DNA of 64,000 bases from assembly GCF_021869535.1 (NCBI RefSeq), contig NW_026262734.1, positions 23,746,001 through 23,810,000 of the forward strand. The letters are read 5' to 3'. The DNA is from Mytilus californianus (lineage: Eukaryota). The notes below the pieces were generated by a model. It was not told the DNA's origin and did no database searches. It worked only from the letters and a program-made list of their open reading frames with translations. The position numbers and the translations under genes were made by a program. This document shows positions 39,001 through 64,000 of this stretch, piece after piece. Within the stretch, counting starts at the first letter, position 1. The number at the start of each line of letters is the position of its first letter.

Positions 39001-42000
39001 TGACTTGTTTATGTCTTAGCTCTGACTGTACAAATGCCAATAAATTTGCATACCAAATATCATTAACTTAACAGCAGTTCATCTTAAACTGATCTTATCA
39101 CAAACTATTACATGTAAACATAAGCAAAAGTTTCAAAGTCAATAGGCAATGACTGAGGGGATGGGGCCAAATATTCTCCATTGAAATGAGATGTGCTAAT
39201 GCTTATACAACTGAAAACCAATTAACATTGGCCTACCACTAATGGTTCCCCTTGAACTGACCTAATCACAAACTAATACATGTTAACTAAGCAAAATTTT
39301 CATAGTCAATAGACCATGACTAAGGGGGCTGAGCCAGGTAATCTCCATGGAAATGAGATATGCCAAAGCTTATACAACTGCATACCAAATATCATTGACC
39401 TACCACTAATGGTTCCTCATAAACTCACCTAATCACAAACTAATACATGTAAACTAAGCAAAAGTTACAAAGTCAATAGACCATGACTGAGGGGGCAGGG
39501 CCAAATAATATCCATGGAAATGAGATGTGCCAATGCTAATACAACTGTATACCAAATATCATTGACCTACCACTAATGGTTCCCCATAAACTGACCTAAT
39601 CACAAACTAATACATGTAAAATAAGCAAAAGTTTGAAAGTATATGATTGACCTACAACTTGTGGTTCACCACAAACTAGACCTAATCACAAACTTATACA
39701 TTGTTGACGCCGCCGCCGCAGTAAACAGCATACCTATGTCTCGCTTTTTGACTCCGTCATGCGAGACAAAAATCGTTTTCTGATGAAATACCTTACATGT
39801 AATGGCTGTCAATTCAGAAAAAAAACTGAATGTCCTATCAAATATTGCCCCCCCCCCCTCCTTGACATATGCAGACAATATTTCATAGATTAATACTAGT
39901 ATAATACTAATAGTATGAAATTGTGTCTTGTTAAAGAGATGTTATCAAAGGTTATATATTATTTTATACTGAGACAATATTTCATAGATGGATTGTCATG
40001 ATATTTGGTCTCATGAAGGGGAGGTTATTAACATTTAATATTTTGGATAATGATATCATTAAAGTGTTTTATTTGATTGATAATAACAAACAAACCTGCA
40101 TAACTAATTTATGCAGCAATTTATGGTAATACACATACCTTTTATGAAAAATATTTTTTTTTAAATTCAAGAAACGCTCACAATTTCATGGCAGAGGATT
40201 TCTCAGGGAAGACATACATTCAATTAGATTCAGAAATATTTTCATGGACAGTATTTCACAATGAAATTTAAATATTGTCATGGACAGAATTTCACAGTCA
40301 AATATTGAATGGACATTATTTCAAAGTGAAATACTGTCCAGAAGGAGGTGACAAATTTTCATGGACAAGGACCCTATTTCATAATGAATATTGTCCTGGA
40401 CAGTATTTCACTGTAAAATAGTGTACATGGACAGTATTTCATGGGGGACATTTTTTTTTATTATACTTCATGTTAAAATGCCATATTTTGATAGGCTAAT
40501 ACGAGGGTGTTAATTTACTCTATTACCATTCATGCAGACGCTTGATCAAGTGTGCGCTTTATTAAATACGACTCTATCCTATGGCAAATACTCTATTTTC
40601 CTTCACGGAGACGCTTGATCAAGTGTGCGCTTTATTAAATACGACTCTATCCTATGGCAAATACTCTATTACCCTTCACGGAGACGCTTGATCAAGTGTG
40701 CGCTTTATTAAATACGGATGGTTGTTATGTACAAGACGTCATAGTTTATTACTTTGAATTTGAAATTTAATCGACAGTAATGCAGGGCTCGACAATAACG
40801 CTTGTCCGATTGTCCGGTACCAGAGGAAAAAAAGGTCGGACAAGTAAAAGCTAGATCAAGGTTGTCCGACGGGACAAGTAAAATCATTTTGTAGAAAATA
40901 AATTAAATCCAACTTTGATGAACAAAGCATTGAGTAATAAGCAAAAAACAAGAAAAGATAAAAACAAATATTAATTTGACATGTTTACCATGTTTACTTG
41001 CAATCGATAATTTAAAACTGGTTCTTTGACAGATACTTTATAACAGATAAAACACGTAATATTCTCGGAAACCAGTCTTAGATGAAATCAAGAATGCGCT
41101 TTGTAGATAAGGTAACAAGACAGTTCGGCACCGGCACGGAAACCAATCCTTCCATGTTTAATAGACAGTATGGCACCGTAGGAGACATTTCAGGACCAAG
41201 CCAACCAGTACCTCATTTCCCTACCCTTTTCTGTTGCTTATAATAAATATGATAAATTTTATTTAACAAAAATATTTTTTAAAATAAAAAATGAAGAAAT
41301 TATTGACCATAAAATTCACAGAATCGTATTTGATCATATGTAGACAAAACAATACTTGATTGCGTTTGAATAAACATTTTAATATATTAATAAAATGCTT
41401 CGCTGGGGCGCAGCTTGATACGACCGCAGAGGTCGAACCCTGAACAGTTGGGGCAAGTATGGACACAACATTCAAGCTTGATACAGCTCTAAATTTGGAT
41501 TGTTATTAAATATTTGACACAGCATAGGTTTCTGACACAGAAAGAATGTGGTCTAAGAATTTGAATTTTTTTTAATTTACCTATTATGGTCCAATGTCCA
41601 AAATCAAAATACATGGTTAGATTCAGCATATCAAAGAACCCCATATATTCAATTTTTGTTAAAATCAAACAAAAAGTTTAATTTTGGACCCCAACTTGGA
41701 CAAACTTGAAAACTGGGCCCATAATCAAAAATCTAAACACATGTTAAGATTCAGCATATCAAAGAACCCCAAGAATTCAATTTTTGCTAAAATCAAACTA
41801 AGTTTAATTTTGGACCCTTTGGACCTTAATGTAGACCAATTTAAAAAACGGGACTTAAAATTAAAAATCTAAATACACGGTTAGATTTGGAATATCAAAG
41901 AACCCCAATAATTCAATTTTTGATGAAATCAAACAAAGTTTAATTTTGGACCCTTTTGACCTCAATATGAACCAATTTGATAGCAGGGCCCACAAATAAA

Positions 42001-45000
42001 AAATCTAAATTCATGGTTAGATTCAGCATATCAAAGAACCCCATATATTCAATTTTTGTTGAAATCAAACAAAGTTTAATTTTGGACCCCAACTTGGACC
42101 AACTTGAAAACTGGGCCCATAATCAAAAATCTAAACACATGTTTAGATTCAGCATATCAAAGAACCCCAAGAATTCAATTTTTGTTAAAATCAAACTAAG
42201 TTTAATTTTGGACCCTTTGGACCTCAATGAAGACCAATTTAAAAAACGAGACCCAAATTAAAAATCTAAAAACACGGTTAGATTTGGCAATAATTCAATT
42301 TCTGATGAAATCAAACAAAGTTTAATTTTGGACCCTTTTGACCTCAATATGAACCAATATGAAAGCGGGGCCTACAAATAAAAAATCTAAATGGTTAGAT
42401 TCAACATATCAATGAACCTCATATATTCAATTTTTGTTGAAATCAAACAAAGTTTAATTTTGGACCCCAATTTGGACCAACTTGAAAACTGGGCCCATAA
42501 TCAAAAATCTAAATACTTGTTTAGATTCAGCATATCAAAGAACCCCATATATTCAATTTTTGTTGAAATCAAACAAAGTTTAAATACTGGACCCTATCTT
42601 GGACCAACTTGAAAACTGGGCCCATAATCAAAAATCTAAACACATGTTTAGATTCAGCATATCAAAGAACCCCAAGAATTCAATTTTTGTTAAAATCAAA
42701 CTAAGTTTAATTTTGGACCCTTTGGACCTTAATGTAGACCAATTTAAAAAACAGGACCCAAAATTAAAAATCTAAATACACGGTTAGATTCGGAATATCA
42801 AAGAACCCCAATAATTCAATTTTAGATGAAATCAAACAAAGTTTAATTTTGGACCCTTTTGACCTCAATATGAACCAATTTGATAACGGGGTCCACAAAT
42901 AAATAAATCTAAATACATGGTTAGATTCAGCATATCAAAGAACCCCATATATTCAATTTTTGTTGAAATCAAACAAAGTTTAATTTTGGACCCCAATTTG
43001 GACCAACTTGAAAACTGGGCCAAAAATCAAAAATCTAAATACATGTTTAGATTCAGCATATCAAAGAACCTCATATATTCAATTTTTGCTAAAATCAAAC
43101 AAAGTTTAATTTTGGACCCTTTGGACCTTCATATGGATTTTTTTGTAAAAAAAAAAGATGCAACATTTGCAGATATTTTTACTGGTCTTCCTTTATAAAT
43201 ATGCTTTACACATAATTTAAAGGCAGTGTAAGGGAAGTAACCAAAACGTTGTATTTGGATTACCTCCCTTACACTGTTTTAAATTATCTCTATTGTTCAT
43301 TAACCATTACTTTATACATAATTTAAAAGCAGTGTAAGGGAGATAATTTCAATGATGTATTTGATTTACCTCCCTTACACTGCTTTAAATTATGTTTTGT
43401 ACTAAAGTATTTGTCCATTAACCAGGACAACCTTGTTTTTCCCCCTTTTTTGCCCCTAATTCCTAAACGGTTTGAGCCATAACCCCCCAAAGCAAATCCT
43501 AACCATCCCTTTGTGGTATGGAAACTTGTAGTATAATTTCAGAGAGATCCATACACCGTTCCACAGTTATTGTCTGGAAACTTTGAAAATGCTTATTTTT
43601 GGGCCCTTTTTGGCCCCTAATTCCTTAACTGTTGGTACCATAACCCCCAAAATCAATCCTAACCTTCCTTTTGTGGTATTTAACCTTATGGTCAAATTTC
43701 AAAAAGATCCATTCACTTAAACTAAAGTTACAGTGCGAAAACCAATGTGTCTTCGGACGACGACGCCGGACGACGACGCCGGACGAAGACGCCGCCGGAC
43801 GACGACGACGCCAACATCATACCAATATACGACCACAAAATTTTTTTGCGGTCGTATAAAAACAAAGCTGTTTGTTGTAAGGCATTAATCATAATAATCA
43901 ATATTTTACCAACATGAAAGACCAGGATACAAACCAAATGAGTGTAGACAAACAGGCCTACCAGACTGTGCCTCATGTGTAGAGTCTGATGAGACTTTGG
44001 CATTGATGAAAACTAGAACCTAAATCCTGTGACATGACTTGATTCAGTTGTTCTCGACTCATATTTTTGAAATAGATATCAAGAGATATAAATCAAATTC
44101 TATTCTTATGTTCATTGAATCAACTTAAAATGCAAAAAAGGTTAATACAAGGATTTGTATAGTGTTCTCACTATACAAATCCTTGGTTAATATTAAGTTT
44201 TTTTTTTTGGACAAGTTACAATTTCATTTGGACAAGTAAGTTTTGATGTGTACTTGTCATATTGGGCAAGTTGAAAAAAAAGTTATTGTAGAGGCCTGTA
44301 ATGACATTCAGTATAATAAATTAAATAACACATATCTGAGAGGGTGATAGAGCAGATTGTTACCCCTCGAAAAGACATTGTCAACCTTGGCTTCGCCTCA
44401 GTTGACAATGTTTTCTTGGGGTAACAATCTGCTCTATCACCCTCTCAGCTATGTGTTATTTATATAATGTTACATAACCTCCTACAGAATAATGCACTAA
44501 ATTATGAATAATACACCTTACCAAGCAGGTGTTATAGTTCCACTTAAAAATATATGTAAATGCATATATACTAAAAACATTGCCAGTGGACAAGTGGAAA
44601 TATAACAAAATAACTATTAGTTTTTAAATTTCATGAAAGAAATTAACAGATATCTGATAAAATAACCTTATGCTCCTAAAATCTGTTTGAATTGACTGCT
44701 TTGTATTTGTTATTTACAAAAGTAACGACTAAGTAGTATTTAAAAGAAACTCCTTTTCAGCATAACTTCCTCTGAGTTTTTGTTAGAAACTTTTCTGCTT
44801 TGTATTGATCTGATGAGTTAAGTCTTTTTCAAATGATTTTTATAGTTGTGTTGTACTGTTACACCACTATCCCAGGTTAGGGGAGGGTTGGGGCCTTCAA
44901 ACATGGTTAACCTCGTCACATTCTATATGTGCCTTCCCAAGTCAGGAGCCTGTAGGTCAGTTGTTGTTTTTGGACCAAGTCTGTCATATTTGTTTGTTTT

Positions 45001-48000
45001 TTTAGCTCACCTGGCCCGAAGGGCCAAGTGAGCTTTTCTCATCTCTTGGCGTCCGTCGTCGTCGTCGTCCGTCATCGTTAGCTTTTTACAAAAATCTTCT
45101 CCTCTGAAACCGCTGGTCCAAATTAAACCAAACTTGGCCACAATCATCATTAGGGTATCTAGTTTTAAAAAATGTGGCCGATGACGCTGCCAACCAACCA
45201 AGATGGCCGCCATGGCTAAAAACAGAACATAGGGGTAAAATGTAGATTTTGGCTTATATCTCTGAAACCAAAGCATTTAGAGTAGATCTGACATGGGTAA
45301 AACTGATTATCAGGTCAAGATCTATCTCCCCTGAAATTTTCAGACAAATCTGACAACCTGTTGTTGGGTTGCTGCCCCTGAATTGGTAATATAAGGAAAT
45401 TTTGCAGTTTTTGGTTATTATCTTGAATATTATTATAGATAGAGATAAACTGTAAACAGTAATAATGCTCAGCAAAGTAAGATCTACAAATAAGTTGTCA
45501 TGACCAAAATTGTCAGTCGACCCCTTTAGGAGTTATTGCCCTTAATAGTCAATTTTTAACAATTTTTTGTAAATTTTTGTAATCTTTTACAAAAATCTTC
45601 TTCTCTGAAACTACTGAGACAAATTTAACCATACTTGGCCATAATCATTATTAGGGTATCTAGTTTAAAAAATTTGTCGGATGACCCCGCCTTCCAACCA
45701 TCATGGCCGACTTGGTTAAAAATAGAACATAGGGGTAAAATGCTGTTTTTGGTTTATATCTCTGAAACTAAAGCATTTAGAGCAAATCTGACAGGTGGCA
45801 AAAATGTTCATCAGATTTAGGTCTATCTGCCCTGAAATTTTCAGACGAATCCGACAACCCGTTGTTGGGTTGCTGCCCCTGAGTTAGTAATTTTACAAAA
45901 ATTTTGCAGTTTTTTGTTATCTTAGATATCATTATAATATCTAATATCTAATACTATTAATTATGATTTTAACCTTATTTTACATGATTTCCAAAGCATG
46001 AGTAAATACAGGTGAGCGACACAGGCTCTTGAGAGCCTCTAGTTTTGTAAATTGCATTGTTATAAATACATGAAATAAGGCAGTAATTTTTTTCAATTGA
46101 ATTGTTTCATATTTTTCATGTCAAGGCCTTTTATAGCCCACTATTCAGTATGGGTTTTTCTCATTGTTGAAGGCCGTAAGGTTGCCTATAATTGCTTACA
46201 TTTACTTCTTTTGAAATTTGGTGGATAGTTGTCTCATTGGCAATCATACCACTTCTCCTTATTTTTATATTGTTGTGGTAATTATGAAAGTTACTTGTTG
46301 AGGTAACAACCCTGACCAGCTGCCAACCACTTTTTTGTCAATCCTGCATCATATTGCATGTGACATTAATGGACACTACTATTAGTGTCAAGAATATATT
46401 TTCCTTATTGAATTATAAGTAGAACTTAACTAGTTTCGAAAACATATATAATGTTTATTGTTTTATTTACAGAGAGTGCTTGTTTTAGTTGCCTTTGATG
46501 TTGATGCTTTATGTGCCTGTAAAATACTTCAGGTAGGATATCATTTAATACACAGTTATTGTTTGTTTGTAAAATACTTCAGGTAGGTTATCATTTAATA
46601 CACAGTTATTGTTTGTTTGTAAAATACATCAGGTAGGATATCATTTAATACACAGTTATTGTTTGTTTGTAAAATACTTCAGGTAGGATATCATTTAATA
46701 CACAGTTATTGTTTGTTTGTAAAATACTTCAGGTAGGATATCATTTAATACATAGTTATTGTTTGTTTGTAAAATACTTCAGGTAGGATATCATTTAATA
46801 CTCAGTTATTGTTTGTTTCATTGTGTATACTGTGTACTGTAATGCCACTTTTCATACATTCATACAATTAGGTAGTGTCCATTCTATCTGGGAAAAGCTA
46901 AGAACCTAGAGCAAACCACTGACTTGCAAGAAGCTGAAAAATCAAATTAATTACGACTGCAGTTTTATAAAACATAAAAACCGATAACAGGAAAAGCGTA
47001 AAATAAATGACATTACAACAGAACACACTATGTAGCAGCAATGAGTTCTCTGAGAAAACAGATGTACAAACAACAATGAAAAACATATATATACTCAGTC
47101 AATAATAATTGTTCTATGATGTACATGTCTGTCCCTTTTTAGATGCTTGATTGTTTAATATAAATATGTTATTTATTGAATTTGATTCAAACACACCTAG
47201 ATTCAGTACATTCAGTCCGATTTTGTTAATCCAGGTAGTAAAAGGCGGATGTTGTCTGTGCATTGTATAGATGTAAGTCAGCTACATAGACCACTCAGCC
47301 CATCAAGGCAATATATAAAATTCATACTTAAGGATGTTAACTACTGTACCTGTACAAGTAATCCTACTTCAACAGTCTTTGGTTACAGTGTTCAAATAGT
47401 TAATAAGTGCCCATATTGGTAAAATACTAATGACAATTTGGGACCAATCAAGTCTGTCAATTTTGCAGAAGTAAAAGTCAAATGATATGAAAAACATACT
47501 TCATAAAACCTTTAAAAAAATACATGTATTTATGCTAATCAAACTGATCCTAATTCTTAGTGCCTACCAGAATGATTTTTTAGCATTATTAAAGTCAAGA
47601 CAGTTTCCCTTGTTGAATCATATGCATGCTCAAAATGTTTTGAAAAATAGAACTATTTGCTTACCTACTGAACATAATTTTTTTATCAGCATGTTAGTAG
47701 AAACACTTGTATTATTGTGTTTTTGCCCAAACAAAGATTATGTTAACATACTACTTTGAATGGCTGTCTTTTTGTCAAAGATCTAAACAATATTATTTTT
47801 ATTTTTCATTGGCTTTCTTTTTCAGTATTTATTCCAGTGTGATCAAATCCTTTATACAATTGTCCCTGTCACAGGAAAAGAAGAATTAGAGAAAGCTTAT
47901 GTAGAAAATTCAGAAGGGGTAGGTTTTGTATACATTGCATACTCAGTATACAGTTACCGCCTCAGTGGTCTTGTGGTAGCTTGTTCAGCTTGAGTGGAGG

Positions 48001-51000
48001 GCATTGTGTGTTCGAACCCAGGCCTGGTAAAACCAAAGACTTTAGAATTGGTATTTGCTGTTTCATAGCTAAGCACACAGCATTTAGGAGTAAAGTCTAA
48101 AGTATGGTTGATACAAGAAGTTATTAACCCTGCTAACTACTAATTAGTCCATCTTAAATACCTCAATTCTAATATGATGTTCTTCAAACACTTTGAGTAC
48201 ACACCTGTGGTAAAATACGAATATATTGTATGTCAGTTGATCAGCAACATCATGATATGGTTGGGCTGTTCCAATCATGCCACTAAGTTGTATGCTTTTT
48301 ATGAATGAGATATCTTAGGTCGATCGGTGTAAATGACGTCGTTAAATGGTTTACTCTAGCTGTGACTTTAGACCATAAGGACTGTACGGGAATATGCACA
48401 AGTGTAAAAGTCGTCAAAACATGGAAACATAAACAAACGATGATAATTTGTTTAAAGCCTTTTCTGAAAAAGAAGTAAAATGTATCCAATTTGTTCAGTA
48501 ATTAAGTATAAAGCTATTATACAAATGAAAGTTACATATTTATTGTGGTTTACACAAATATTTGTTGGAAGCAGTACACATCCATTGATGTTATGTACCT
48601 TATACTTGCAGGTTAAACATGTGATATTTATAAATTGTGGAGCATCAGTAGATGTTGTTGAGACTTTACAGCCTGAAGAAAGTGTCAGATTTTATATATG
48701 TGATAGGTAAGATATAGGGTCTACTTTTAATATAAGAGAGACTTTACAGCCTGAAGAAAGTGTCAGATTTTATATATGTGATAGGTAAGATATAGGGTCT
48801 ACTTTTAATATAAGAGAGACTTTACAGCCTGAAGAAAGTGTCAGATTTTATATATGTGATAGGTAAGATATAGGGTCTACTTTTAATATAAGAGAGACTT
48901 TACAGCCTGAAGAAAGTGTCAGATTTTATATATGTGATAGGTAAGAAATGGGGTCTACTTTTAATATAGGAGAATTTGAAATCTGGAAAATAAGGTGTGG
49001 CATTTGGAAACAATCTTGACATGGTTTCCAATGAGACAACTAATCACCAGAAAACAAAGGACAATCCTGTAATGTTTACATGGTTAAGTGTTCCATGACA
49101 ATCCTGTAATGTTTACATGGTTAAGTGTTCCATGACAATCCTGTAATGTTTACATGGTTAAGTGTTCCATGACAATCCTGTAATGTTTACATGGTTAAGT
49201 GTTCCATGACAATCCTGTAATGTTTACATGGTTAAGTGTTCCATGACAATCCTGTAATGTTTACATGGTTAAGTGTTCCATGACAATCCTGTAATGTTTA
49301 CATGGTTAAGTGTTCCATGACAATCCTGTAATGTTTACATGGTTAAGTGTTCCATGACAATCCTGTAATGTTTACATGGTTAAGTGTTCCATGACAATCC
49401 TGTAATGTTTATATGGTTAAGTGTCCCATGACAATCCTGTAATGTTTACATGGTTAAGTGTCCCATGACAATCCTGTAATGTTTACATGGTTAAGTGTTC
49501 CATGACAATCCTGTAATGTTTACATGGTTAAGTGTCCCATGACAATCCTGTAATGTTTACATGGTTAAGTGTTCCATGACAATCCTGTAATGTTTACATG
49601 GTTAAGTGTTCCATGACAATCTTGTAATGTTTACATGGTTAAGTGTTCCATGTGAAGGTAGATCTAGAAAAGGAGCTTTAAACTAGTGGTGAAAAGATTT
49701 ACTTAGTTCGATTTTCATTCATATTACGGTTTGGTTCCCGTCTGGATTGATTCTGAGTGTTATCATTTTCCATTGGCCAATCAAAACTTGAGTTACAAAT
49801 TGTTTCAAATATCATATCCATGTCTCTATGAAAATGGCTGGCTGGATTATCATTGGTTAAATAAATATTTAAAATCTTTATGTATTTTAGCTACACTTAA
49901 GGAACAGCATGTTTACTAAACACAAAAAAAAAACATTTGCTATTAGACTACATGTATTAATTCCAGTTTGGGTATAAAATTATGTATGGGATTGTCACCC
50001 TTGTATCGTGATATGTATAGTATCATTAGGTAGGTGTATCGTCATAGCCCTACTTGAAACACAACACATTTATATATTTTTTTTATTTTTAAGCAAAACT
50101 GTTAATATATTAAATTTTAGCCACAGAGCAGTAGATTTACTGTTACACAGTGTATTTAATGCAGTACCAGTAAAGCTGTTTAGGTATTCTATTTTAGCCA
50201 CAGACCAGTAAAAATGTATTTAATGCAGTACAGGTCAATCTTTTGATATTTTATATTTTAGTCACAGGCCAGTAGATTTACACAATGTATTTAATGCAGT
50301 ACCAGTCAAGCTTTTAATATTTTAGGTTTTAGCCACAGACCAGTAGATGTACACAATGTATTTTAATGCAGTACCAGTCAAGCTGTTTATGTATTATATT
50401 TAAGCCACAGACCAGTAGATGTACACAATGTATTTAATGCAGTACCAGTCAAGCTGTGTATGTATTATATTTAAGCCACAGACCAGTAGATGTACACAAT
50501 GTATTTAATGCAGTACAAGTCAATCTTTTAATATTTTATGTTTTTGCCACAGACCCATAGATGTACACAATATATTTAATGCAGTACAAGTCAAGCTGTT
50601 TATGTATTATATTTAAGCCACAGACCAGTAGATGTACACAATGTGTTTAATGTAGTACAAGTCAATCTTTTAATATTTTATATTTTAGCAACGTTAACTG
50701 ACCAGTAGATGTACACAATATATTTAATGCAGTACAAGTCAATCTGTTTATGTATTATGTTTTAGCCACAGACCAGTAGATGTACACAATGTGTTTAATG
50801 TAGTACAAGTCAATCTTTTAATATTTTATATTTTAGCCACATACCAGTTGATGTACACAATATATTTAATGCAGTACAAGTCAAGCAGTTAATGTATTAT
50901 ATTTTAGTCACAGGCCAGTAGATGTACACAATATATTTAATGCAGTACAAGTCAAGCTGTTAATGTATTATATTTTAGTCACAGACCAGTAGATGTACAC

Positions 51001-54000
51001 AATATATTTAATGCAGTACAAGTCAAGCTGTTAATGTATTATATTTTAGCCACAGACCAGTAGAAGTACACAATGTATTTAATGCAGTACAAGTCAAGCA
51101 GTTAATGTATTATGTTTTAGCCACAGGCCAGTAGATGTACACAATGTATTTAATGCAGTACAAGTTAAACTGTTAATGTATTATATTTAAGCCACAGGCC
51201 AGTATATTGTACACAATGTATTTAATGCAGTACTTTTCAAACTGTTAATGTATTATATTTTAGTCACAGGCCAGTAGATGTACACAATGTATTTAATGCA
51301 GTACAAGTCAAGCTTTTGATGAAGGAAGAAGAATTTGATGAGTTACCAGAGTATGATTCCTTATTCAGAGATGATGATGTAAGAATGTTATCAGTGTTTT
51401 TCCTGCCTTTATTTTGGGTCCGAATATCGGCCCTGTTCCCAATTAGAAAAACCCTATTTTATTCCCAAATGAACACTGAAAATTCCCAATTCAATCAAGT
51501 TGTAGCGGAAAGGTTATTGATTATTTTATCGTTCGTATGATTTGGTTCAACAATATAGGTTGTCGTACTGTTCCCGAAGAAAAACAAGTCGATAGACAGA
51601 TGATAATATTTCGGGAACCGGTTTAACTTAGTTCTGCATAGTTTATCTGAAAACCTGAAAAACGTGAATAACCATGATCTAAATTTTCATAGGAACCAAC
51701 TTTAATTCTATGAAAGTTTGCTAGTACGGTCAATTTTTTTTCTTTAAATAATATTATTGAATGTATGATTATTATTATTTTCGATTAAAAAAACATAGAG
51801 CATTTTTCTAAATTTCATTTTTGTCTCCATAAATGCGCTTAATTGTCTTTGTTAATTTTTTGGTCTTAGGTTTATTTATAAATTTTGTAAACATGCCAAA
51901 GCGTGCGGCGAAATGCTTTTTTCGCTGGTCAATACGTTATTTTCTTCTGTTAGTTGTGATGATAATATCAATTAAAACAGGCAATCTAGCCAAAGAAATA
52001 CTTGAAACGGCATTAATTAAATACCATGGAAAGTATGGCAGTCCACTCACACTCGGGAATTCACGGGAATAGAAACGAATCTTAAATTATCTCCTACTAT
52101 TAAAAGTGGTTAAATCAGTTGCAATAATTTGAATGTGAATTGTCCTACTAGTCTGTGTATCACGATTTGATTCTTCTTTTGTTGCCATCATAAACAGTAT
52201 TGGATAGTACATGTACTTTCCTGCTTTAGTATATACTTTTTACTTATGTTAATGTTATAAACTGTAATGGCCTGTTCATGTTCAAAATGGTCCATTAAAA
52301 TTTATATGAGGAGCCCTTGGCCCATAGAGACAAAATCTTTCCAGATCACTGCATACAGACTCTTAATGGAGATGATTAAAAATAAAATAAATAGTTTTGT
52401 TTCTACATTTTATTAGCAAACCAGTTAATTCATCATGCAAAACATCGGGAAATGCCCCAGATCACATTATTTAGCTTCATTTATTTTAAAATTGGGCGGG
52501 GGGCATGCCATCAGACACCTGTAGCATTGGTCGTACCTTTGGAACTTGACAGGAGAGTAGAGCTGGAAGACTTTAAAAAAAAAAAAAAAATTTAAATAGC
52601 CCTCTGGGCTAGTAAAGGAATTTAGTGAGTGTCAAACCCTGAAGTTATATATTTACATGCATCAAGAAAAAAAATGATATGTTCAAATTTGAACATGATA
52701 GAAAATTGGAATTCTAATAAATAACCTCATTGAACTTTGATGAAAACAATGATTTATTTTTTCCCAGTTCACACGTTATACGACACATTTTTCCCAATTG
52801 CCTAGGGCCCAGGCCCCATTTGAATAAAGGTAGGAACATCACTGGTTATAAATAGGTCAAGTAATTTATCCAAACAGATTTATGAGATATCTTATATAAC
52901 AACATAACTTAAGTTTATATCAGTATTGTTGAGTTTTTTTTATTTACTAGTAAAATGATTTTGGGACTTGTAATTTTCCTCATTTGAATTGTTTCAAATT
53001 TTGTCATGTCTGGGCTTTTATGGCTAACTATACAGTATGGGTTTTTGCTCATTGTTGAAAACTGTTCAGTGATCTTTAATTGCTGAAGTCCATGTCGTTT
53101 GAACTCTGGTGTATATTTATCTCATTGGAGTGAAATATACCTTGAGTTTCAACAACTGAGTTTTAATGCTCAATAAACTAATGGAGTAAAATACACTTTG
53201 AGTTTTAACAACTGAGTTTTAATGCTCAATAAACTTATGGAGTAAATAATACACCTTGAATTTCAATAACTCCCGGTGCTCAATAATTTTATGGAGTAAA
53301 ATACACCTTGAGTTTCAATCTATCTTAATGCTCAATAATTTTAAATGGAAAAACACATCTTGAGTTTCAATAACTCTTAGTGCTCATACTAATCAAAGTT
53401 TTGTCTGATATGAGTTGTAGGGAAAACTGGTTATTTATGCTTTCTGTGAGACTTTTTTTATTTACAGTCAGATGATGATTCAGGAAATGATAGTGATAGT
53501 TCAGAAAGGTCAGGAAAACGAAAAAGATTCGATGATGAAGCTATTGAAAAAAGACGAGATAAAAGAATCTGGAATGAGAATAGGTATTTGATATCGAATA
53601 AAACTTATAAGAATTTAAAAAACAATGACAGCCAAAACATGCAAACATGTTTCAAAATTAAATGCTTTAATTTACCTATAAGTGAAAAAGATAATAAAAA
53701 AAGTTCTGGTCCACCCAGGGAACTCCCCATAGAAAAACGAGAAAGTTGCATTTGAACCATCAAACAAACATACAATTTTATACAGTTTCATTGTGTGACC
53801 TATTTATGCTGAATTGCTGCTGACTAAGGCAAATGTTTTTGTTTCTTACAGACAGAAGATATTATTTGAATATAATCAGTTCTCTACATATGGCACTGCT
53901 GTAAGTACATTATTCCTCTAGCATTCAGTAAGTCATTTAATTTACTGAAAATTTTTAAAGTGATTACTTCATATAAGCCCAAAAAAAAGTATGTGGGTTT

Positions 54001-56278: not shown

Positions 56279-57086
56279 GTGAGTGTTATTTCCTGTGAAA
56301 ATTATTATCAATCCTGAATATTAAACCTGATCAGTGTCAGAATCTCCATAATATTCAAATCCATGAAAAAATCCACAATTTTTATGCCCTACACATTTTG
56401 GCCATCATGACCAACATTTTGTAATAAAAGATTGAGAACTATGGCTATGTTTTTATGTCAAGATTTATATTTCAGGAAGAGCTGATATTCTTTTAAAAAC
56501 AAAATTAGCATGTCCACATTTCTATTAATGGGGAGATAATCCATTTTATAATCTTTCTCCTTAGAACTGCAGTGCTGAATAAATTATAGGTCTGTACATC
56601 AAGTAACAATCATATGAATAGATATGGGTTTTAAAATCTAAAAATAAGTCACAATGAATGGATGAATTGGATAAGTGCTATTCCAGAAAAAAATGTATGG
56701 GGGTGTTGGACGGCAGTTGATCTTTTTTTGCATGGGTGATGGGGGGAGGAGGAATTAAAATTGTGTGGGTAGTTGTTCTCTTACACAACTTAATTAGATG
56801 GGTGGTTGTACCTAAAGAGAAGAAAATATCTTTTTCAGTTGATAGAACCTTCAAATATCGATGGAAAACGTGTTTTAATCGGCGATTTTGTTTACTTTTT
56901 GCGCATATTAAATCCTTTGGTTAATGCCCGAGCGTTTCGAATGGAACTGTATATGCATATCGGTGTTCCTAAAAGGGAGAGAGTTACAAAGTGTCAGAGT
57001 AGTAACTGGTTCCCGGATTTCTTTTTTAACTGTTTTCCCTAATGTGACATGTTCAGTTACCGGATTGTTTACCGCATGGAAACAGC

Positions 57087-57168
57087 ATGGCTGGACAGTG
57101 GGATGTTATCGCTGTTTGTTCCTGGCTCCAATCCAATGGATTGGGGAAATTTGCGGACTTTTTTACAG
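57087..57168 (+). CDS. SAM-VTD gene exon 1 (N-terminal half of SAM)
   Basis: ATG at 57087, WxxxxVxxWL motif, phase-1 GTAATA donor. Confidence 0.8.
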
Positions 57169-60100
57169 GTAATATTTGTTCATTAAAGGAGATGGTGTTG
57201 TGAAAATTTATCCACAACTCGAAGACTGGCTCCAGAAAAGCAAAGTTTACCATGTTATTAACGAAATAAATGCAAAAAACAAAAAGTCAGTATGTTTTAC
57301 TGACAATCGAAATTAAACAGATAAATGAGTGTATATTCGAAAGGAAGTTACAGAGTCCCAATACAAACAATAAAATGATTTTAATTAGGGTTATTAAAAA
57401 AAAAATTTCATACGAGAAAAGGCTGTTTTGTTGGCATCTTGATTCTTGATTGATTTTTATTTTATCATTATATATATATAATAAAAACACAGAAATGACA
57501 AAAATAAACATAATATAACCACAAGAGTATTTTTTTATCAGTATTGTGTGAAATATGCTCCAGAACTTGATTAGTACAGTGAAATGTTTTGTCAGAAGGT
57601 AATATAATTATTTGTTTGCCTTTGGCATAGTTTGATTGTTATTATTCTGAGTATACATGAGGGTCGTAATGGGGGTACCTTCATGACCAATAACGGTAAA
57701 AATTCTTAACAAATGACGTTAACGGTAATTTTTGGTACATGACGATAAAATGTACACTTTCTTTTAAACGATAAAAAAAATCAACTGATTTTGACGAATC
57801 ACGTTAAATTTTTTCCAAAAATAACGGTAACGATAATTATTTGAGACCTCTGACGAATCACGATAAGGATATTTTGACAAATCACGGTAAAATTTTAACC
57901 AATATGACGCTAACGGTAGCCAAAAATGACTGTTTGACGCCTGACGGTAAATGGCATTCCTACCCTCATACATGGGTAAATTAATTATAACCAAAAAATT
58001 ACTTTTATGTACACATGTAGTAAAATAGATAAGTCACAGTAGTTTTTCAAAGTTGCAAGCAGATTCTATTGAACTTTGTAGGAAATCAATGTCGGATATA
58101 AATTGCCAGTATTATTTGTAAGTAGTAGAACTTATGAACCTACACATGCTTTTGGTGGATGGATATTTTATCATACTTAATAACTTATAGCTAGCTTGCT
58201 GTGTAAAAGCACTATATAATCAATAATTTTAATGCACATTTACTTGTTTTCATGCTGTTTATTCATTTCACTTTTTCTGTTATTTTCAACATATATTTAT
58301 AAACAAATTGCCTAATGTGATAAAGATATTTGATGCAGTTTACATGTACATGAAATTATCACAAATTAATTCTACCACAAAATTTTTAGATGTTGATGGA
58401 ATTTGTATACGGTAATCATTTTTAACTTTCATACCCTGCTATATATCCATATATCTATCACATATATTATTCTTGTGCTTCTGTAATCATTCTACAGGCA
58501 TGGATTTAGAGGTTGGCATATGTCTTGCCCTTTCCCCACTAAAAATGAGAGGATTTTTTTTAACACAGTAAACATTTAAGCATTGTTACCCTAGACAATG
58601 AATGAAAAAAATGCACCTACTAAAACCAAAGTCCTGGATCTGTGTCTGCTTTAATTTGTATTTCTCAAAGTTTCCTTTGATTGTTATTCTTTTAAAGGTG
58701 ATTATTGATAACAAATTATGAAAGGTATTTCACACCAAAACCAGCACTTTAATATAAAAAAGTACTTCAATAGATAATTAACATACCGGGTAGATACTAT
58801 TTACTAATATTCAATCTTAACTCTTTGTCAGGTAAGTGATTCAGTTCTAGTAGAGGTTAGCCTAGAACTGAATAAATGCTTTTAAGACTAACCTCAGACT
58901 TTTCGAGATAGAATGAATAGTTACAAACAAAATGTATATATAGTGGTCACATAATACCTAAGAAATGGAATCAGATATAAAACTTTTGTCAGAAACTACA
59001 GAGACAATTTGAATAAAACTAGAGGAGTGGTCCATGATTGTCATTTACTACAATTGTAACTCTCAATTTTTTAAATGACTGTTTTATACTCTGATTGGCT
59101 GTCCGACACTTTTTGTATGTCGTGGTCACTTTTGCCATCTGTAGACATTTGGTTTTTATTAGCCTAAATTATTGTATATCATTGTCCGTCCATCCGTCAT
59201 CACCACTTCGAACAAAAACCCAAAACAACTTTCACCTATTTTCATGTTTCAATAAATCATCATATCCTATCCCAGCACCCCAACTCCATAGATCACTACG
59301 TGTTTGGAACATCTACTTAGACCAATCAGAATAAACTTTTTTTATTTAGGAGTATTTTGAGGGGCATAAAGAAGGGAGGGGTTTACTAAAGAACCCTATG
59401 GGATTTTATTTTTTTTAATTTTCAAATAACTATAAACGTGAAAACCGTAGGTAATAGATGCACTCGGTCTTCAGTAATGATCACTAGACAATAAAACAAA
59501 TCAAATAAAATGAAGGGTAAGTCCCTGGGGGTCACCACCACCCCCTTCAATTTGAGAATGTGCTTTTATCTTGCAAAAGGTCCAGATTCCCACCCCTAAA
59601 CCATATATATTCTTGTATGGGACAATAAAACAAATCAAATGAAATATAGAGGGAGTTCCCAGTGTCGCCCCCACCCCCGTCCTGTTTGAGAATGTGTAAA
59701 CGGTTTAGATCCCCACCCCTAAACCATATATATTCTTGTATGGGACATTAAAACAAATCAAATGAAATATAGAGGGAGTCTTCGGGGTCACCCCCATCCC
59801 CATCCTGTTTGAGAACGTGTAAACGGTTTAGATCCCCACCCCTAAACCATATATATTCTTGTATGGGACAATAAAACAAATCAAATGAAATATAGGGGTA
59901 GTCTCTTGGGATCACCCCCACCCCCTTCTGTTTGAGAACTTGAAAATGATCGAGATCCACACCCCTAAACCATATATATTCTCGTATGGGACAATAACAC
60001 AAATCAAATGAAATATATGGGGAGTCCCCAGGGGTCATCCCCACCCCTCCTGTTTGAGAAAACAAAACATGTTAGAAAACACAATCATTTCAAATTTTCA

Positions 60101-63100
60101 TTGACATCAAATCCTTTATAAGCAAGTGAGATGTGACAGCTAAAATGGAAAAAAATTATAGGGGTAGTACCAAGGGTTTTATAATTACAAGGCTTTGATT
60201 GGGAGACTTTGTAACAGCATCCTGTTACTATTATGTATTTTTTTAAATGAAATTTCATAGAAATGTGCCTTGTATGGTAAATATTCAACTTTGTCATTTG
60301 CTATTCATGTTAAGTTGGATTGAATGATAGTTAGGAGGGGGTTTAATGTATAATCACAGTAAGTATTTGTTTTACAAGACCATTTTTTTTTTATAATTTC
60401 AGAAGAAGAAATAGATGGTAATGCTTTATTGGGCCTAAACGAAGATGAGGTGTTACAGATTTTCCCAAAAATGGGACCAAGGGCAAAATTTAGGACCCTC
60501 CTTCATCAGTTAAAGGTATGAACATAACGCCAGATCCTTTTATATTTAACATGTTTTATTATTATCAAAGGACATCTATGTTTTTATGCCCCACCTACGA
60601 TAGTAGAGGGCCATTATGTTTTCTGGTCTGTGCATCCATTCGTTTGTCTGTTCGTTCGTCCGTCTGTCCCGTGTCAGGCAAAAGTTTTTGGTCAAGATAG
60701 TTTTTGATGAAGTTGAAGTCCAATCAACTTGAAACTCAGTACACATGTTCCCTATGATATGATCTTTCTAATTTTAATGCCAAATTAGAGTTTTGACCCC
60801 AATTTCACGGTCCACTGAACATAGAAAATGATAGTGTGAGTGGGGCATCCATGTACTTTGGACACATTCTTGTTTACATATGTGAATGTTTGGCATGATT
60901 TTGGTTTCCTTTTCTTATTTCAAATCATGTCGTGCTTTTCTTTGACAGATCAATATTTATGAAATGCATTTATCATCGGAACATATGTTGATAGATATAT
61001 GCAACATACTTCACTGAAGCTGTACTGTGACATATAATTGCTTATATTTATTACATTTGGTCTTGTTTTCTGCCATTAACCACCAAAACTGTCATCTGTA
61101 GATCCATCCTAATATCCCTTTTTTACTTGTTTTTTATGTTGAACATGTTCTTGTCTGATTTTATCCCCATCAGTGATCACACGATGTTGAAGAACCATCA
61201 ATCAATCAATTTAAAAGATAAACAATTTTTATTATGTTACAGGAAGGTGACATGAAGGAAAAAAAGCCTGAGAAGCCTGAAGAAGTCACCAAAGCATCTG
61301 TAACACTTGAGGCTGTAACTTTTGAAATACAACCAGAAAATATGGAACATGTAGAAATAAATGATCTTGAGACCAAACAACAAGATGTTAAGGTTGAACC
61401 ACAGATTGTCAACAGAAAACAGGCTATCCCAAAAGCACAGATAACAGCAAAGTTAGCACCTGGTACTCAGATGACACTTAATCATTTTCTGAAGGGAAAA
61501 ATGGATCCTAAATGTGACAGGTGTGTAACTATACCCATTGCAAATGAAGTTATAGGGGTATACAGTTTTGACCTAATGGTAACAACTTTTTGTCATTACT
61601 TTTCCTCTGTCCTCTGTTGTAATAGAAAATAAAGGGATATGGAGTAAATGTACATGGGACAAAATTGCACAAAATACATAGAGAAAATACAAATTATCAA
61701 TCAACAGGGCTTTTATTCCTGTTCTTCATCTTGACAGTCGATGTAGAGTCTTCAACAATGAACGAATCATTCATAGCCTACAACAAGGTCAAGACGGCCC
61801 CTAGCATCTTTCTACATCCATTTAATTGTTTATTTAATAGGTGAGCTTTGCAGGTTTAGATGAGTATTAGGTTTTACTGTCAACAAATATGGGCACCACG
61901 CTTTAAAAAAAACATTTAAATAGAGAAAACGCAAAGTGGCAATTTATTCAGATGTTCTGTAGCTCAAAAAACAAAAAGGAATAACCCTGTCTGTCTCTCC
62001 GTCTGTCTTACTAAGTTTAACATTGCAATATGTGGCAACAGGTGTCCTAAGTGGAAAAAGGGGGGTATCTGTTACTCTGCACACATTCTGTCTTTATTTC
62101 AATTTAGTATGATGCTTGTATTTATATACAAATGAAATAATGTTGTTTTTTTTTTCAGATATGGTGAATTGAGGCGTATTGGTTTTAAAGTTTTCGAACA
62201 AGAGTTCCTAGATTTGCAAACACCTATGAAGCGTGCATGGTATGAGTTTTGGAACAAAAAGGCTTTGGACTTCGCACATAAAAATACCAAAAGATCTTAT
62301 ATGGAAGGTTTGATAAAAAAAGCCTGGTCATATGAAGGTGGTAGACAGATTGCACTATGCAAATTTGGGAAGGAAATCGGTAAAGCTCAAAAATTAGAAA
62401 ATGATCCATTCAGTTGCTATGAGCAAGCAGCAGAACAGAAACAAAATGAAATACAGAAATTGGAGACAGAAAAGACAGAAAAAGAGCAGGAACTTTGTAG
62501 TCGAATATACAAAGGAACCATTTCTATGAATGATAAAGTTTCATTACGAAAGCATATAAAATTGATAACAGTTGATGCTGAGAAAGCTGAGAAAGATTAT
62601 TCAAAAATACTAACAAACTGGACAGCTCATGCTTATAAAGTTGAGAGACGGGGGGGAAGAAGAAAAAGAAACCTGGTAGGAAAAGGAAAGCAGAAATACA
62701 GGAGATAAAATATCTGACTGCAAAGGAGTTAAGGTCTAAGAAAAGTAAAGTTGATAACCAGTCAGCAGGCAACCAAGATAAAAGTATGGAGTCAAATGAT
62801 ATGTTTGTAGAAGACGCAGCTGAGATCACAAGTGACAACCATGATGAAGGTATGGAGTCAAATGATGTTATGTTTGTAGACGACCCAGCTGAGATAACAA
62901 AGGACAACCATGATGAAGGTATGGAGTCAAATGATGAAATGTTTGTAGAAGACCCAGCTGAGATCACAAGTGACAACCATGATGAAGGTATGGAGTCAAA
63001 TGATGTAATGTTTGTAGACGACCCAGCTGAGATAACAAAGGACAACCATGATGAAGGTATGGAGTCAAATGATGTAATGTTTGTAGACGACCCAGCTGAG

Positions 63101-63858
63101 ATCACAAGGGATAACAACAATGAAGGTATGGAGAAAAAGAATCAGGAAAAACAGAAGAAAAATCCAATGACAAAGAAAAACATGACCCTATTTATACCAC
63201 AGACATATGATACGTACCTTGGAATAAAGTTGTTATTTCCAGGAATCAGTCAGAACACAGTTGGGCTTCCCCATGGTCTATCACGAGGTTCAAATGCTTG
63301 CACTGGTTTCTGCCTAAAATTGGCTGAACATTTTTTTAATGAAAAATTTTCTCTTCACATTAAACCCGCACTTTCCGAGTATAGAAGTAGCCTGCATGAA
63401 ATAGTATCAAGGTATGAGGACAGAAACATTCAGATGATGGACACAAAATCAGCTATGACATATTTTGGATATCAGAATTCGATGAAAATTATATCAGACA
63501 CATATTGGCACCGACAACTTGGTGTAGGTGCATCTGATGACCATTAGAAATATGCAGTGCAGAATACAACAGATCGATAAACTCACAAGAAAGAGAAGCC
63601 CTTTGTATCACTGTGTCAGACAAAACATTCATCATTTTAAATAATGAGGAAGGAGATCAAGTCCTTTTTGACTCCCATGTGCATTACACTGATGATAACA
63701 TGACTCTAGAAGATACTTTAAACAGAAAAGATCTACATGGTCTGATTGCTGCAAGTGACAAAACCTCAAACATGCTTATGTATGTATTTGCTCATGTTGT
63801 AAATGAACTAAGATGTTCCACTGATACCGGATGTATGTATCACTGTCAAAAAAACTAA
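57087..63858 (+). CDS. SAM-domain protein with C-terminal tegument-like (C76/VTD) deubiquitinase-like domain; 4 exons, last exon with two frame breaks (assembly error or pseudogene)
   Basis: Exons 57087-57168, 60403-60515, 61243-61520, 62159-63858; GT-AG, junction phases 1, 0, 2. Exons 1+2 give MAGQWDVIAVCSWLQSNGLGKFADFFTEEEIDGNALLGLNEDEVLQIFPKMGPRAKFRTLLHQLK (SAM pattern). Adding one base at the G7 run (62650-62656) and one C near 63541 gives a single 724-aa frame. Confidence 0.75.
57659..57967. mobile_element. 309-bp MITE with 6-bp TSD
   Basis: Ends GAGGGTCGTAATGG / GGCATTCCTACCCTC; ATACAT on both sides; internal TAACGGTAA repeats. Confidence 0.75.
59487..60060. repeat. 123-bp tandem repeat, about 4.6 copies
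   Basis: GACAATAAAACAAATCAAAT at 59487, 59621, 59744, 59867, 59990. Confidence 0.93.
60403..60515 (+). CDS. SAM-VTD gene exon 2 (C-terminal half of SAM)
   Basis: EEIDGNALLGL...MGPRAKF motif, T-rich CAG acceptor, GTATGA donor. Confidence 0.85.
60581..60874 (-). mobile_element. pearl/Helentron-like short element
   Basis: TTTTTATGCCCC... microsatellite ...GGGGCATCCATGTACTTTGGACACATTCTTGTT; related to about 12276-12461 and 32262-32666. Confidence 0.75.
61243..61520 (+). CDS. SAM-VTD gene exon 3 (charged linker)
   Basis: 278 nt inside track ORF 61234-61632, AG/GTGTGT flanks. Confidence 0.75.
62159..63858 (+). CDS. SAM-VTD gene terminal exon (track ORFs 62169-62708, 62786-63547 and 63613-63858 joined by two -1 shifts)
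   Basis: Strong T-tract CAG acceptor; the downstream frames are open back to 62645 and 63541, overlapping the upstream frames. Confidence 0.7.
62786..63127 (+). repeat. Coding tandem repeat, 69 bp (23 aa) x5
   Basis: MESNDVMFVDDPAEITKDNHDEG units; the first unit is 22 aa. Confidence 0.97.
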
Positions 63859-64000
63859 AATATGCTCCTTGTTTACCTATGCGGGAAAATTCAATAAATG
63901 TCTCATGTAAAGAAAATACAACAAATTTAAATATTTATAAAAGAAGATTAAAGAATGATAATTTTCAGCGTGATGGCCGGAGATCAGCAGCAATAAAAAA

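What the first reader, a model, noticed from the sequence alone, without database searches (positions are those of the whole stretch)
63190..63858. Cys...Asp-Ser-His catalytic layout of herpesvirus tegument / VTD deubiquitinases
The frame reads FPGISQNTVGLPHGLSRGSNACTGFCLKLA (Cys codon 63299-63301; the upstream Gln is a candidate oxyanion residue). It later reads ALCITVSDKTFIIL...QVLFDSHVH...HGLIAAS (Asp 63670, His 63676). This follows the C76 pattern: Gln...Cys helix, then hydrophobic strands ending in FD(P/S)H followed by a GA/GL strand. Herpes UL36/BPLF1/M48 use an Asp-x-His dyad of this order. The fold assignment is by motif only.
Basis: partly seen in the sequence, partly recalled or inferred. 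Interest (0 to 1): 0.8.

Follow-up and report, generated by a model that had tools for sequence, protein, structure and literature searches.

The report
Transposon deubiquitinase frameshift-linked to its transposase
A mussel cut-and-paste transposon carries a protease domain predicted to fold like herpesvirus deubiquitinases (broken in this copy, intact in a sister copy), and a conserved slippery site likely lets ribosomes shift frame and fuse it to the transposase, a control known mainly from viruses, retroelements and bacterial insertion sequences.

Summary
A 98.5%-identical sister copy is intact. Its predicted fold (pLDDT 96.5) best matches solved VTD deubiquitinases (8ADD Z 15.2; herpes M48 Z 13.0), and Gln, Cys, Asp and His are near-invariant in 37 homologs.

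It is not herpesviral. It ends the spliced ORF1 (SAM...VTD) of an 11.3-kb Zator-like DNA transposon (TIRs, 3-bp duplications, DD43E transposase, MITEs).

ORF1 ends in A_AAA_AAC-stop with the transposase in the -1 frame, here and in a 33%-identical relative; in each it is the only in-frame copy of that heptamer in the frame scanned. 15 of 26 homologs with a complete domain end finish in Lys-Asn or Lys-Asn-x. Three relatives fuse both ORFs in frame. A programmed -1 frameshift giving a deubiquitinase-transposase fusion is likely (about 0.65).

Against it: no stimulatory RNA structure, AATAAA and ATGs lie near the junction, and no RNA reads cover it. Enzyme activity is untested. My searches found no report of VTDs in Zator-like elements, nor of -1 frameshifting in a mobile animal DNA transposon.

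The parts
56672..56674 (+). Left target-site duplication TAA (repeated after the right TIR, beyond the window)
   Evidence: TTA/TTA at the C132 and C13 copies
56675..56718 (+). Left terminal inverted repeat (about 44 bp) of an 11.3-kb DNA transposon whose right end lies at G000:C154:23813991
57087..57168 (+). ORF1 exon 1 (predicted): ATG and first half of a SAM domain
   Evidence: GT donor and frame fit; SAM_1 E 6e-4, profile 2-24, below cut-off
60403..60515 (+). ORF1 exon 2: second half of the SAM domain
   Evidence: SAM_1 profile 27-64, E 0.16; RefSeq model starts inside it
61243..61520 (+). ORF1 exon 3, low-complexity linker
   Evidence: AG/GT ends; matches RefSeq protein P0005
62159..63858 (+). 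ORF1 exon 4: helical and basic region, acidic repeat, VTD domain; broken in this copy near 62658 and 63541
62770..63133 (+). 69-bp tandem repeat (23-aa acidic unit), 5.3 copies here, one fewer in C132, many more in C13
63182..63855 (+). VTD-type cysteine protease domain (224 aa in the intact copy), split over two frames here
63251..63253 (+). Gln24, invariant, candidate oxyanion residue (role inferred)
   Evidence: 20 of 20 rows; aligned to Gln of 8ADB
63299..63301 (+). Cys40, predicted nucleophile at the start of helix 40-52
63670..63678 (+). Asp163-Ser-His165, the VTD Asp-x-His motif
63849..63855 (+). A_AAA_AAC heptamer in the ORF1 frame, directly before the stop; candidate -1 slippery site
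63856..63858 (+). ORF1 stop (TAA here and in C132, TGA in C13)
63825..64000 (+). Start of ORF2 in the -1 frame: Zator-like DD43E transposase, 921 open codons in C132; continues beyond the window and is broken there in this copy

Best explanation
This is a frame-broken copy of a predicted VTD-type deubiquitinase domain at the end of ORF1 of an 11.3-kb Zator-like cut-and-paste transposon, and in intact copies a -1 ribosomal frameshift at A_AAA_AAC likely fuses ORF1 to the transposase. Shown: TIRs, 3-bp duplications, three near-identical full copies, MITEs, an intact sister copy, conserved Gln/Cys/Asp-x-His, the heptamer directly before the stop, and the transposase in the -1 frame. Predicted: the VTD fold and exon 1. 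Inferred: most ribosomes stop and make a SAM...VTD protein of about 700 aa; a minority slip back one base and make a fusion of about 1,600 aa that carries the DD43E core. This would keep transposase scarce, as in bacterial IS3-type elements, while the protease is plentiful. Also inferred: the protease removes ubiquitin (most likely K48-type chains, as Helitron and herpes VTDs do) to protect element proteins from degradation. My odds by step: VTD fold 0.97, TIR DDE transposon 0.98 (Zator 0.85), cleaves ubiquitin or NEDD8 0.8, -1 frameshift 0.65-0.7.
For: Fold; Atlas top clusters carry PF04843 in 17% and 11% of members, score 0.96 and 0.95. Element: three copies 96-98.5% alike over 11.3 kb; TIRs and TAA/TTA/TTA duplications; 54 exact TIR matches, 0 for the control; 3-bp TNA duplication in 11 of 11 MITEs fetched; D150, D274, E318 invariant in 18 rows, spaced DD43E in 17 of 18. 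Junction: A_AAA_AAC-stop in all three copies and in L039, whose domain family is 33-34% identical; in L039 the -1 frame opens two codons before the stop, its first ATG comes 41 codons later and it stays open for 958 codons. The heptamer occurs in frame once in 541 codons (C132 exon 4) and once in 575 (L039), both times terminal. The decayed C165 copy has ACA AAT AAC TAG, one base from the heptamer, and by my reading of the and 76 output its transposase N-terminal motif lies in the -1 frame. 15 of 26 homologs with a complete domain end finish in KN or KN+1 (15 of the 21 that stop within 15 residues), against 0 of 18 transposases. They are spread over the whole tree, and the residue before KN is always one that an A-ending codon can encode (15 of 15; about 0.01 by composition). 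Natural in-frame fusions exist: P0012/L040, L041 and P0049, whose junction reads CMYRITSKKKHLDSPCLP against the -1 frame LKDAPCLP here. No GT-AG pair of intron-like quality joins the frames. A_AAA_AAC and U_UUA_AAC are named among the most shift-prone heptamers for mammalian ribosomes (PMC5009743).
Against: No stimulatory structure: the six downstream stretches fold no better than shuffles (z -0.17 to +1.79). AATAAA lies 37 and 136 nt after the heptamer in C132 and overlaps the stop in L039, so ORF1-only transcripts are possible. The mussel -1 frame has an ATG 8 codons after the site and another just before it. No raw RNA read covers the domain or the junction. DNA was seen for only two intact lineages and one decayed copy; the other KN-enders are protein only, share ancestry, and P0003/P0006 are one family, so the binomial value overstates the case. 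6 of 21 short-tailed homologs do not end in KN, nor does the dropped fragment P0066. Pfam names no member. AvrPphB, a non-DUB protease, scores Z 11.6, close behind the VTDs. The acidic pair that binds ubiquitin's tail in DrT1-VTD2 was not identified as a column conserved at 70% or more.
Confidence: 0.65

Rival explanations
1. Two separate proteins: ORF1 ends at its stop (perhaps polyadenylated just after it) and the transposase is made from its own transcript or by re-initiation at a nearby start; terminal Lys-Asn is a protein motif.
For: AATAAA near the stop in both lineages; ATGs flank the site in the mussel family; no 3' stimulator; RefSeq models ORF1 alone.
Against: In L039 the first ATG lies 41 codons in, after the conserved RD..R motif. 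Host-like homologs with free C-termini lack KN. A protein motif does not explain AAA-AAC codons after an A in both lineages, nor the -1 phase. AATAAA is common in such AT-rich DNA.
Confidence: 0.2
2. The fusion is made by RNA polymerase slippage on the run of 7-8 A, adding one base, not by the ribosome.
For: A-runs of 7 (mussel) and 8 (L039); P0049/P0100 read in frame through a lysine run; IS elements use this route (PMC5009743).
Against: The oyster family ends in Ser-Leu-Asn, which would fit U_UUA_AAC and not an A-run, but its DNA was not seen. The conserved terminal Asn is expected for tRNA slippage, not for an A-run.
Confidence: 0.07
3. Splicing joins ORF1 to ORF2.
For: ORF1 is spliced upstream; a 6/8 donor-like site lies 23 nt before the ORF1 end in the mussel family.
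Against: No frame-joining pair with donor 6/8 or better and 10/17 pyrimidines or more in C132 or L039 (a crude score); the linker DxPCLP is kept as protein in P0049. The only joint listed there, 791-1116, has TA..CA ends and also stands in a presumed DNA run, but RNA depth was very low.
Confidence: 0.05
4. The domain has the VTD fold but is not a deubiquitinase; it cuts the element's own polyprotein or another substrate, as YopT/AvrPphB-type proteases do. This rival concerns the substrate, not the frameshift.
For: Identity to solved VTDs is only 7-18% and AvrPphB scores Z 11.6; no Pfam match; ubiquitin-tail contacts not identified.
Against: Asp-x-His order is VTD-like, not YopT-like (PMC9741609); the paper states that all characterised VTDs cleave ubiquitin; related transposases in this genome carry an OTU domain upstream instead.
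Confidence: 0.15
5. The domain is a relic of an integrated herpes-like virus.
For: Fold match to M48.
Against: It sits between TIRs with 3-bp duplications, in a spliced ORF beside a DDE transposase; the long ORFs of the three 40-94 kb neighbourhoods are those of the element; no relative of the transposase among 111 candidate stretches in viral contigs.
Confidence: 0.01

Closest known systems
VTD deubiquitinases: Helitron DrT1-VTD2 (8ADD), Waddlia Wc-VTD1 (8ADB/8ADC), herpes M48 (2J7Q); PMC9741609
   Same: Predicted alpha-beta-alpha papain-like fold, upstream Gln, Cys on a helix start, Asp-x-His; carried by a transposon.
   Different: 7-18% identity, no PF04843 match; host is a TIR/DDE element, not a Helitron or virus; lies at the end of a SAM-bearing spliced ORF. 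The paper's main text never mentions Zator, DDE or frameshift, though it notes cnidarian VTDs fused to unnamed transposon-associated domains.
Zator DNA transposons (related to bacterial TP36/ISAzo13)
   Same: TIRs of 30-45 bp and 3-bp TAA/TTA duplications, as for amphioxus Zator-1 (PMC12905397); DDE core without a Pfam match, as reported for Zator (PMC5751038); Atlas lead to ISAzo13 at 0.83, the prokaryotic partner of Zator (PMC5718144).
   Different: 11.3 kb, with an upstream multi-exon ORF1 holding SAM and VTD domains, and the transposase in the -1 frame. No reference Zator transposase was on hand for direct alignment.
Bacterial IS3-family OrfA/OrfAB frameshift (PMC5009743)
   Same: Upstream ORF overlaps a -1 frame catalytic ORF; the fusion is the transposase; low shifting limits transposition.
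   Different: Eukaryotic, spliced; the upstream product is a predicted protease rather than only a DNA-binding regulator; no 3' structure found.
Kluyveromyces KAT1; ciliate Tec2 and TBE elements
   Same: Eukaryotic DNA-transposon-derived genes expressed through a programmed frameshift (KAT1 is -1; PMC4763223, PMC4316626; Tec2 by reference title in PMC5405496; TBE in PMC5009743).
   Different: KAT1 is a domesticated yeast hAT gene with an internal shift; Tec2 and TBE are ciliate cases. Here the element is a multi-copy animal transposon and the site is kept across deep lineages at an ORF junction.

Membership tests
VTD deubiquitinases | Cys ... Asp-x-His catalytic order, conserved | tested here: met
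   Cys 20/21, Asp 30/32, His 33/33 rows; in register with 8ADB. One frame in the C132 copy, two frames in the window.
VTD deubiquitinases | VTD / M48 fold | tested here: met
   Model pLDDT 96.5; Foldseek ranks 1-6 are VTD or M48 chains, TMq 0.48-0.57; Z 15.2, rmsd 3.6, 184 aligned to 8ADD.
VTD deubiquitinases | Sequence match to known members | tested here: inconclusive
   Family profile hits 8ADB at E 1.9e-5; single sequence hits nothing; PF04843 matches 0 of 37 rows at E 0.1.
VTD deubiquitinases | Triad residues within catalytic distance | not testable with these tools
VTD deubiquitinases | Ubiquitin-binding acidic pair and hairpin loop | tested here: inconclusive
   No matching acidic pair among columns conserved at 70% or more; the region is poorly conserved in known VTDs too.
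VTD deubiquitinases | Cleaves ubiquitin or NEDD8 conjugates | not testable with these tools
   Needs a bench assay.
Zator transposons | TIRs with 3-bp TAA/TTA-type duplication | tested here: met
   3 of 3 full copies; 11 of 11 MITEs TNA (TAA 6, TTA 2, TCA 2, TGA 1).
Zator transposons | DDE catalytic triad | tested here: met
   D150, D274, E318 invariant in 18 rows, DD43E in 17; roles inferred, fold not confirmed (model pLDDT 34).
Zator transposons | Clusters with Zator / TP36 / ISAzo13 transposases | tested here: inconclusive
   Atlas lead to PF07592 at 0.83 and 0.80 only; no Pfam, PDB or plasmid match; the VDGGPDE motif as a Zator mark is recalled, from no call.
Programmed -1 ribosomal frameshift cassette | In-frame X_XXY_YYZ heptamer in the overlap, downstream ORF in -1 frame | tested here: met
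   Three mussel copies and L039.
Programmed -1 ribosomal frameshift cassette | Conserved across diverged relatives | tested here: met
   DNA in two intact lineages; KN end in 15 of 26 proteins across the tree; the rest protein only.
Programmed -1 ribosomal frameshift cassette | 3' stimulatory hairpin or pseudoknot (usual in viral cases, not universal) | tested here: inconclusive
   0 of 6 stretches fold better than shuffles; the method does not model pseudoknots or protein stimulators.
Programmed -1 ribosomal frameshift cassette | Trans-frame product detected | not testable with these tools
   Needs a reporter, ribosome profiling or proteomics.
Integrated herpesvirus | Other viral genes around the tegument domain | tested here: not met
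   Neighbourhood is a TIR element with a DDE transposase.

The most novel reading that the evidence does not exclude
A widespread lineage of animal cut-and-paste transposons uses a virus-style -1 ribosomal frameshift, kept over deep divergence and without an obvious RNA stimulator, to make two products from one spliced mRNA: a free deubiquitinase and a scarce deubiquitinase-transposase fusion. Some branches have fixed the fusion in frame, sister elements use OTU in place of VTD, and cnidarian-type host genes derive from the same domain.
Probability: 0.6. Interest if true: 0.85.

Novelty: new variant of a known kind. Interest (0 to 1): 0.74.

Why it matters
It extends the VTD deubiquitinase family to a divergent subfamily that Pfam misses and to a second class of DNA transposon. 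This fits the proposal that VTDs spread through more than one transposon class, and that mobile elements swap VTD and OTU enzymes for one job. If the frameshift is real, it adds a conserved recoding cassette in animal DNA transposons, where a frameshifted transposase is normally scored as dead; such elements would be missed as autonomous. An intact natural copy and a seven-base site make both claims directly testable.

Tried and rejected
Pfam scans of the domain pieces and of 37 aligned rows: nothing over a cut-off. Single-sequence PDB search: 0 hits. Transposase model without an alignment: pLDDT 34, not used. Transposase against PDB (profile) and plasmids: nothing meaningful. Viral contigs: 0 relatives among 111 candidate stretches; the domain alignment was too diverged to scan with. 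Sequencing runs: no holder on record as RNA was listed. Laying four runs gave sparse first-mate-minus reads in ORF2 from the one raw RNA run (6% read) and none over the domain or junction, so expression and junction form stay open. Eighteen further own-genome transposase neighbourhoods held no new intact junction; one (L084) has a domain fragment next to a deleted transposase. Rows left out of alignment A2: 4 of 39 hits (P0066, P0074, P0076 short or chimeric; P0081 a chance match). Earlier findings of the scan: none shown. Bao et al. 2009 and Yuan and Wessler 2011 could not be read. Herpesvirus origin rejected on the element's anatomy.

Full report
Observation. A DNA search of the own genome gave five matches, three of them full length at 98-100%. 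The C132 copy carries the domain in one 557-codon frame and is the RefSeq gene LOC127704263 of Mytilus californianus. The window copy differs from it by 31 substitutions in 4,432 bases and five indel events, three of which break a frame (near 62658, 63541 and extended 64497). The C13 copy has other breaks. All protein work used the intact natural copy (P0003).

The domain. A search of 1.84 billion representatives gave 39 hits; 35 of them, the query and one diverged own-genome copy were aligned (A2, 37 rows; four hits left out, see Tried and rejected). Gln24, Cys40, Asp163 and His165 are kept in 20/20, 20/21, 30/32 and 33/33 covering rows. The profile hits Wc-VTD1 (8ADB) at E 1.9e-5 with Gln, Cys and Asp-x-His in register; the only other hit is E 0.06. 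The AlphaFold2 model has mean pLDDT 96.5. Foldseek ranks 8ADD, 8ADC, 8ADB and M48 first; the wide structural search gives Z 15.2 (8ADD), 13.0 (M48), 12.7 (8ADB), then 11.6 for AvrPphB. The Atlas's two best clusters carry PF04843 in 17% and 11% of members, although the recognition value was under its threshold. Against: no Pfam family passes for any of the 37 rows, and ubiquitin-contact residues were not identified. The Asp-x-His order defines VTDs against YopT-type proteases (PMC9741609). I therefore file it as a divergent VTD, with activity inferred.

The element. The three copies align over 11.3 kb, from window 56675 to G000:C154:23813991. They end in inverted repeats of about 44 bp flanked by TAA/TAA, TTA/TTA and TTA/TTA. 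The 29-base TIR occurs 54 times exactly (control 0); 11 of 11 short TIR pairs fetched are 181-201 bp MITEs with a 3-bp TNA duplication. ORF1 has four predicted exons with GT-AG introns; exons 1 and 2 match the two halves of SAM_1, each below cut-off. ORF2 is open for 921 codons in C132. Across 18 relatives it has invariant D150, D274 and E318, spaced DD43E in 17. Amphioxus Zator-1 has 33-bp TIRs and TAA/TTA duplications (PMC12905397); Zator is paired with ISAzo13 (PMC5718144), and the Atlas gives ISAzo13 as a weak lead. PIF/Harbinger elements also make TWA duplications (recalled), and no reference Zator protein was aligned, so I say Zator-like. Named relatives occur in Mytilus coruscus, M. edulis, Crassostrea virginica and Mya arenaria.

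The junction. ORF1 ends CAA AAA AAC stop, that is A_AAA_AAC, with ORF2 in the -1 frame, in all three copies. One metagenome scan confirmed 4 loci among 313 candidate stretches. L039 has the same layout: AAA AAA AAC TGA, the -1 frame opening two codons before the stop, 958 open codons, first ATG 41 codons in. L040 and L041 fuse domain and transposase in one frame; L042 is a fragment. In C132 exon 4 and in L039 the terminal heptamer is the only in-frame one in 541 and 575 codons. A decayed second family on C165 ends ACA AAT AAC TAG. At protein level 15 of 26 homologs with a complete domain end finish in KN or KN plus one residue, at 6-14 residues past a fixed column, so the motif follows the stop and not the fold; 0 of 18 transposases end so. 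On a 28-row tree built without the last six residues, KN-enders fall in many clades with tip lengths near one change per site; the two long fusions form one supported pair, P0049 is a separate fusion close to the mussel family, and three host-like proteins form a clade without KN. The residue before KN is never one of the eight amino acids that cannot end in A (15 of 15). The oyster family ends Ser-Leu-Asn, which would fit U_UUA_AAC (DNA not seen). A_AAA_AAC and U_UUA_AAC are listed among the most shift-prone heptamers for mammalian ribosomes, and IS elements fuse an upstream ORF to a -1 catalytic ORF to keep transposase low (PMC5009743).

Against the frameshift. None of six downstream stretches folds better than shuffles. 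AATAAA lies close after or over the stop in both lineages. The mussel -1 frame has ATGs on both sides of the site. The one raw RNA run gave no reads over the junction. Only two intact lineages were seen as DNA, and shared ancestry inflates any count. A crude splice-site scan found no frame-joining intron.

Mechanism. Inferred: one spliced mRNA yields mostly a SAM...VTD protein of about 700 aa and, by occasional -1 slippage, a fusion of about 1,600 aa that holds the transposase core. The protease would remove ubiquitin from element proteins, the role that PMC9741609 proposes but did not test for Helitron VTDs. More distant transposases in this genome carry an OTU domain upstream: L070 passes the Pfam cut-off (32.1 bits against 23.3) and L072 is below it. 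This mirrors the VTD/OTU exchange described for Helitrons and herpesviruses.

Literature seen. PMC9741609: outline, sections 6, 8 and 13, and term passages; its supplements were not read and may list such elements. Term passages only: 10.1101/2021.09.26.461848 (86), PMC5751038, PMC5405496, PMC4316626, PMC6431247, PMC7386202, PMC5009743 (first 300,000 of 449,034 characters held), PMC4763223, PMC12239620, PMC5718144, PMC8533490, PMC11071193, PMC12905397. Bao 2009 and Yuan and Wessler 2011 were not held. Searches listed no paper on VTDs in Zator-like elements or on -1 frameshifting in a mobile animal DNA transposon; subscription journals and Repbase were not searched. Precedents found: KAT1 (-1, domesticated, yeast), and Tec2 and TBE in ciliates.

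Verdict. The window copy is broken, but it marks a recently mobile Zator-like transposon family with a divergent VTD and a likely conserved -1 frameshift into the transposase. New variant of known kinds; interest 0.74.

Noticed in passing
L070:4200-4661 (+) and L072:6376-6693 (-): More distant transposases of the same DD43E type carry an OTU domain upstream instead of VTD (Pfam OTU 32.1 bits, over cut-off, and 17.2 bits, under).
   Followed up: partly
Proteins P0061, P0068, P0069, P0105: A clade of long, host-like proteins with the same domain and intact Cys/Asp-x-His; P0105 is a Hydractinia protein that looks membrane-spanning. Possibly domesticated copies.
   Followed up: partly
G000:C13:65815008-65826824: The C13 copy has a much longer 69-bp repeat, a deletion of about 320 bp in ORF2 and 1-base breaks; NCBI names its product 'argonaute-2-like', apparently a misnomer.
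   Followed up: partly
G000, many contigs; L113-L123: A family of 181-201 bp MITEs shares the element's TIRs; many further single exact TIR matches were not examined.
   Followed up: partly
L033:3270-3443; L071:6268-8619: The transposases end in a SAP/HeH-like helical motif (SAP over cut-off in L071, weak in this family).
   Followed up: no
window 59584-60060 and 60581-60876: Intron 2 region of the element holds a 123-bp tandem array and an interspersed repeat found elsewhere in the genome; both are shared by the three copies.
   Followed up: no
window 41600-43137, 46518-46818, 48660-51321: Several tandem arrays (periods 136/263, 50, 78, 37, 71 bp) outside the element.
   Followed up: no
L023/L025 (C92), L026 (C128), L084 (C165), L004 (C94), L005 (C24): Decayed fragments of further VTD-bearing families in this genome; one has Phe in place of the catalytic Cys.
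   Followed up: partly
P0003 Trp109 and His167: A Trp invariant in 32 of 32 rows and a second His (30 of 33) two residues after the catalytic His mark this subfamily; roles unknown.
   Followed up: no
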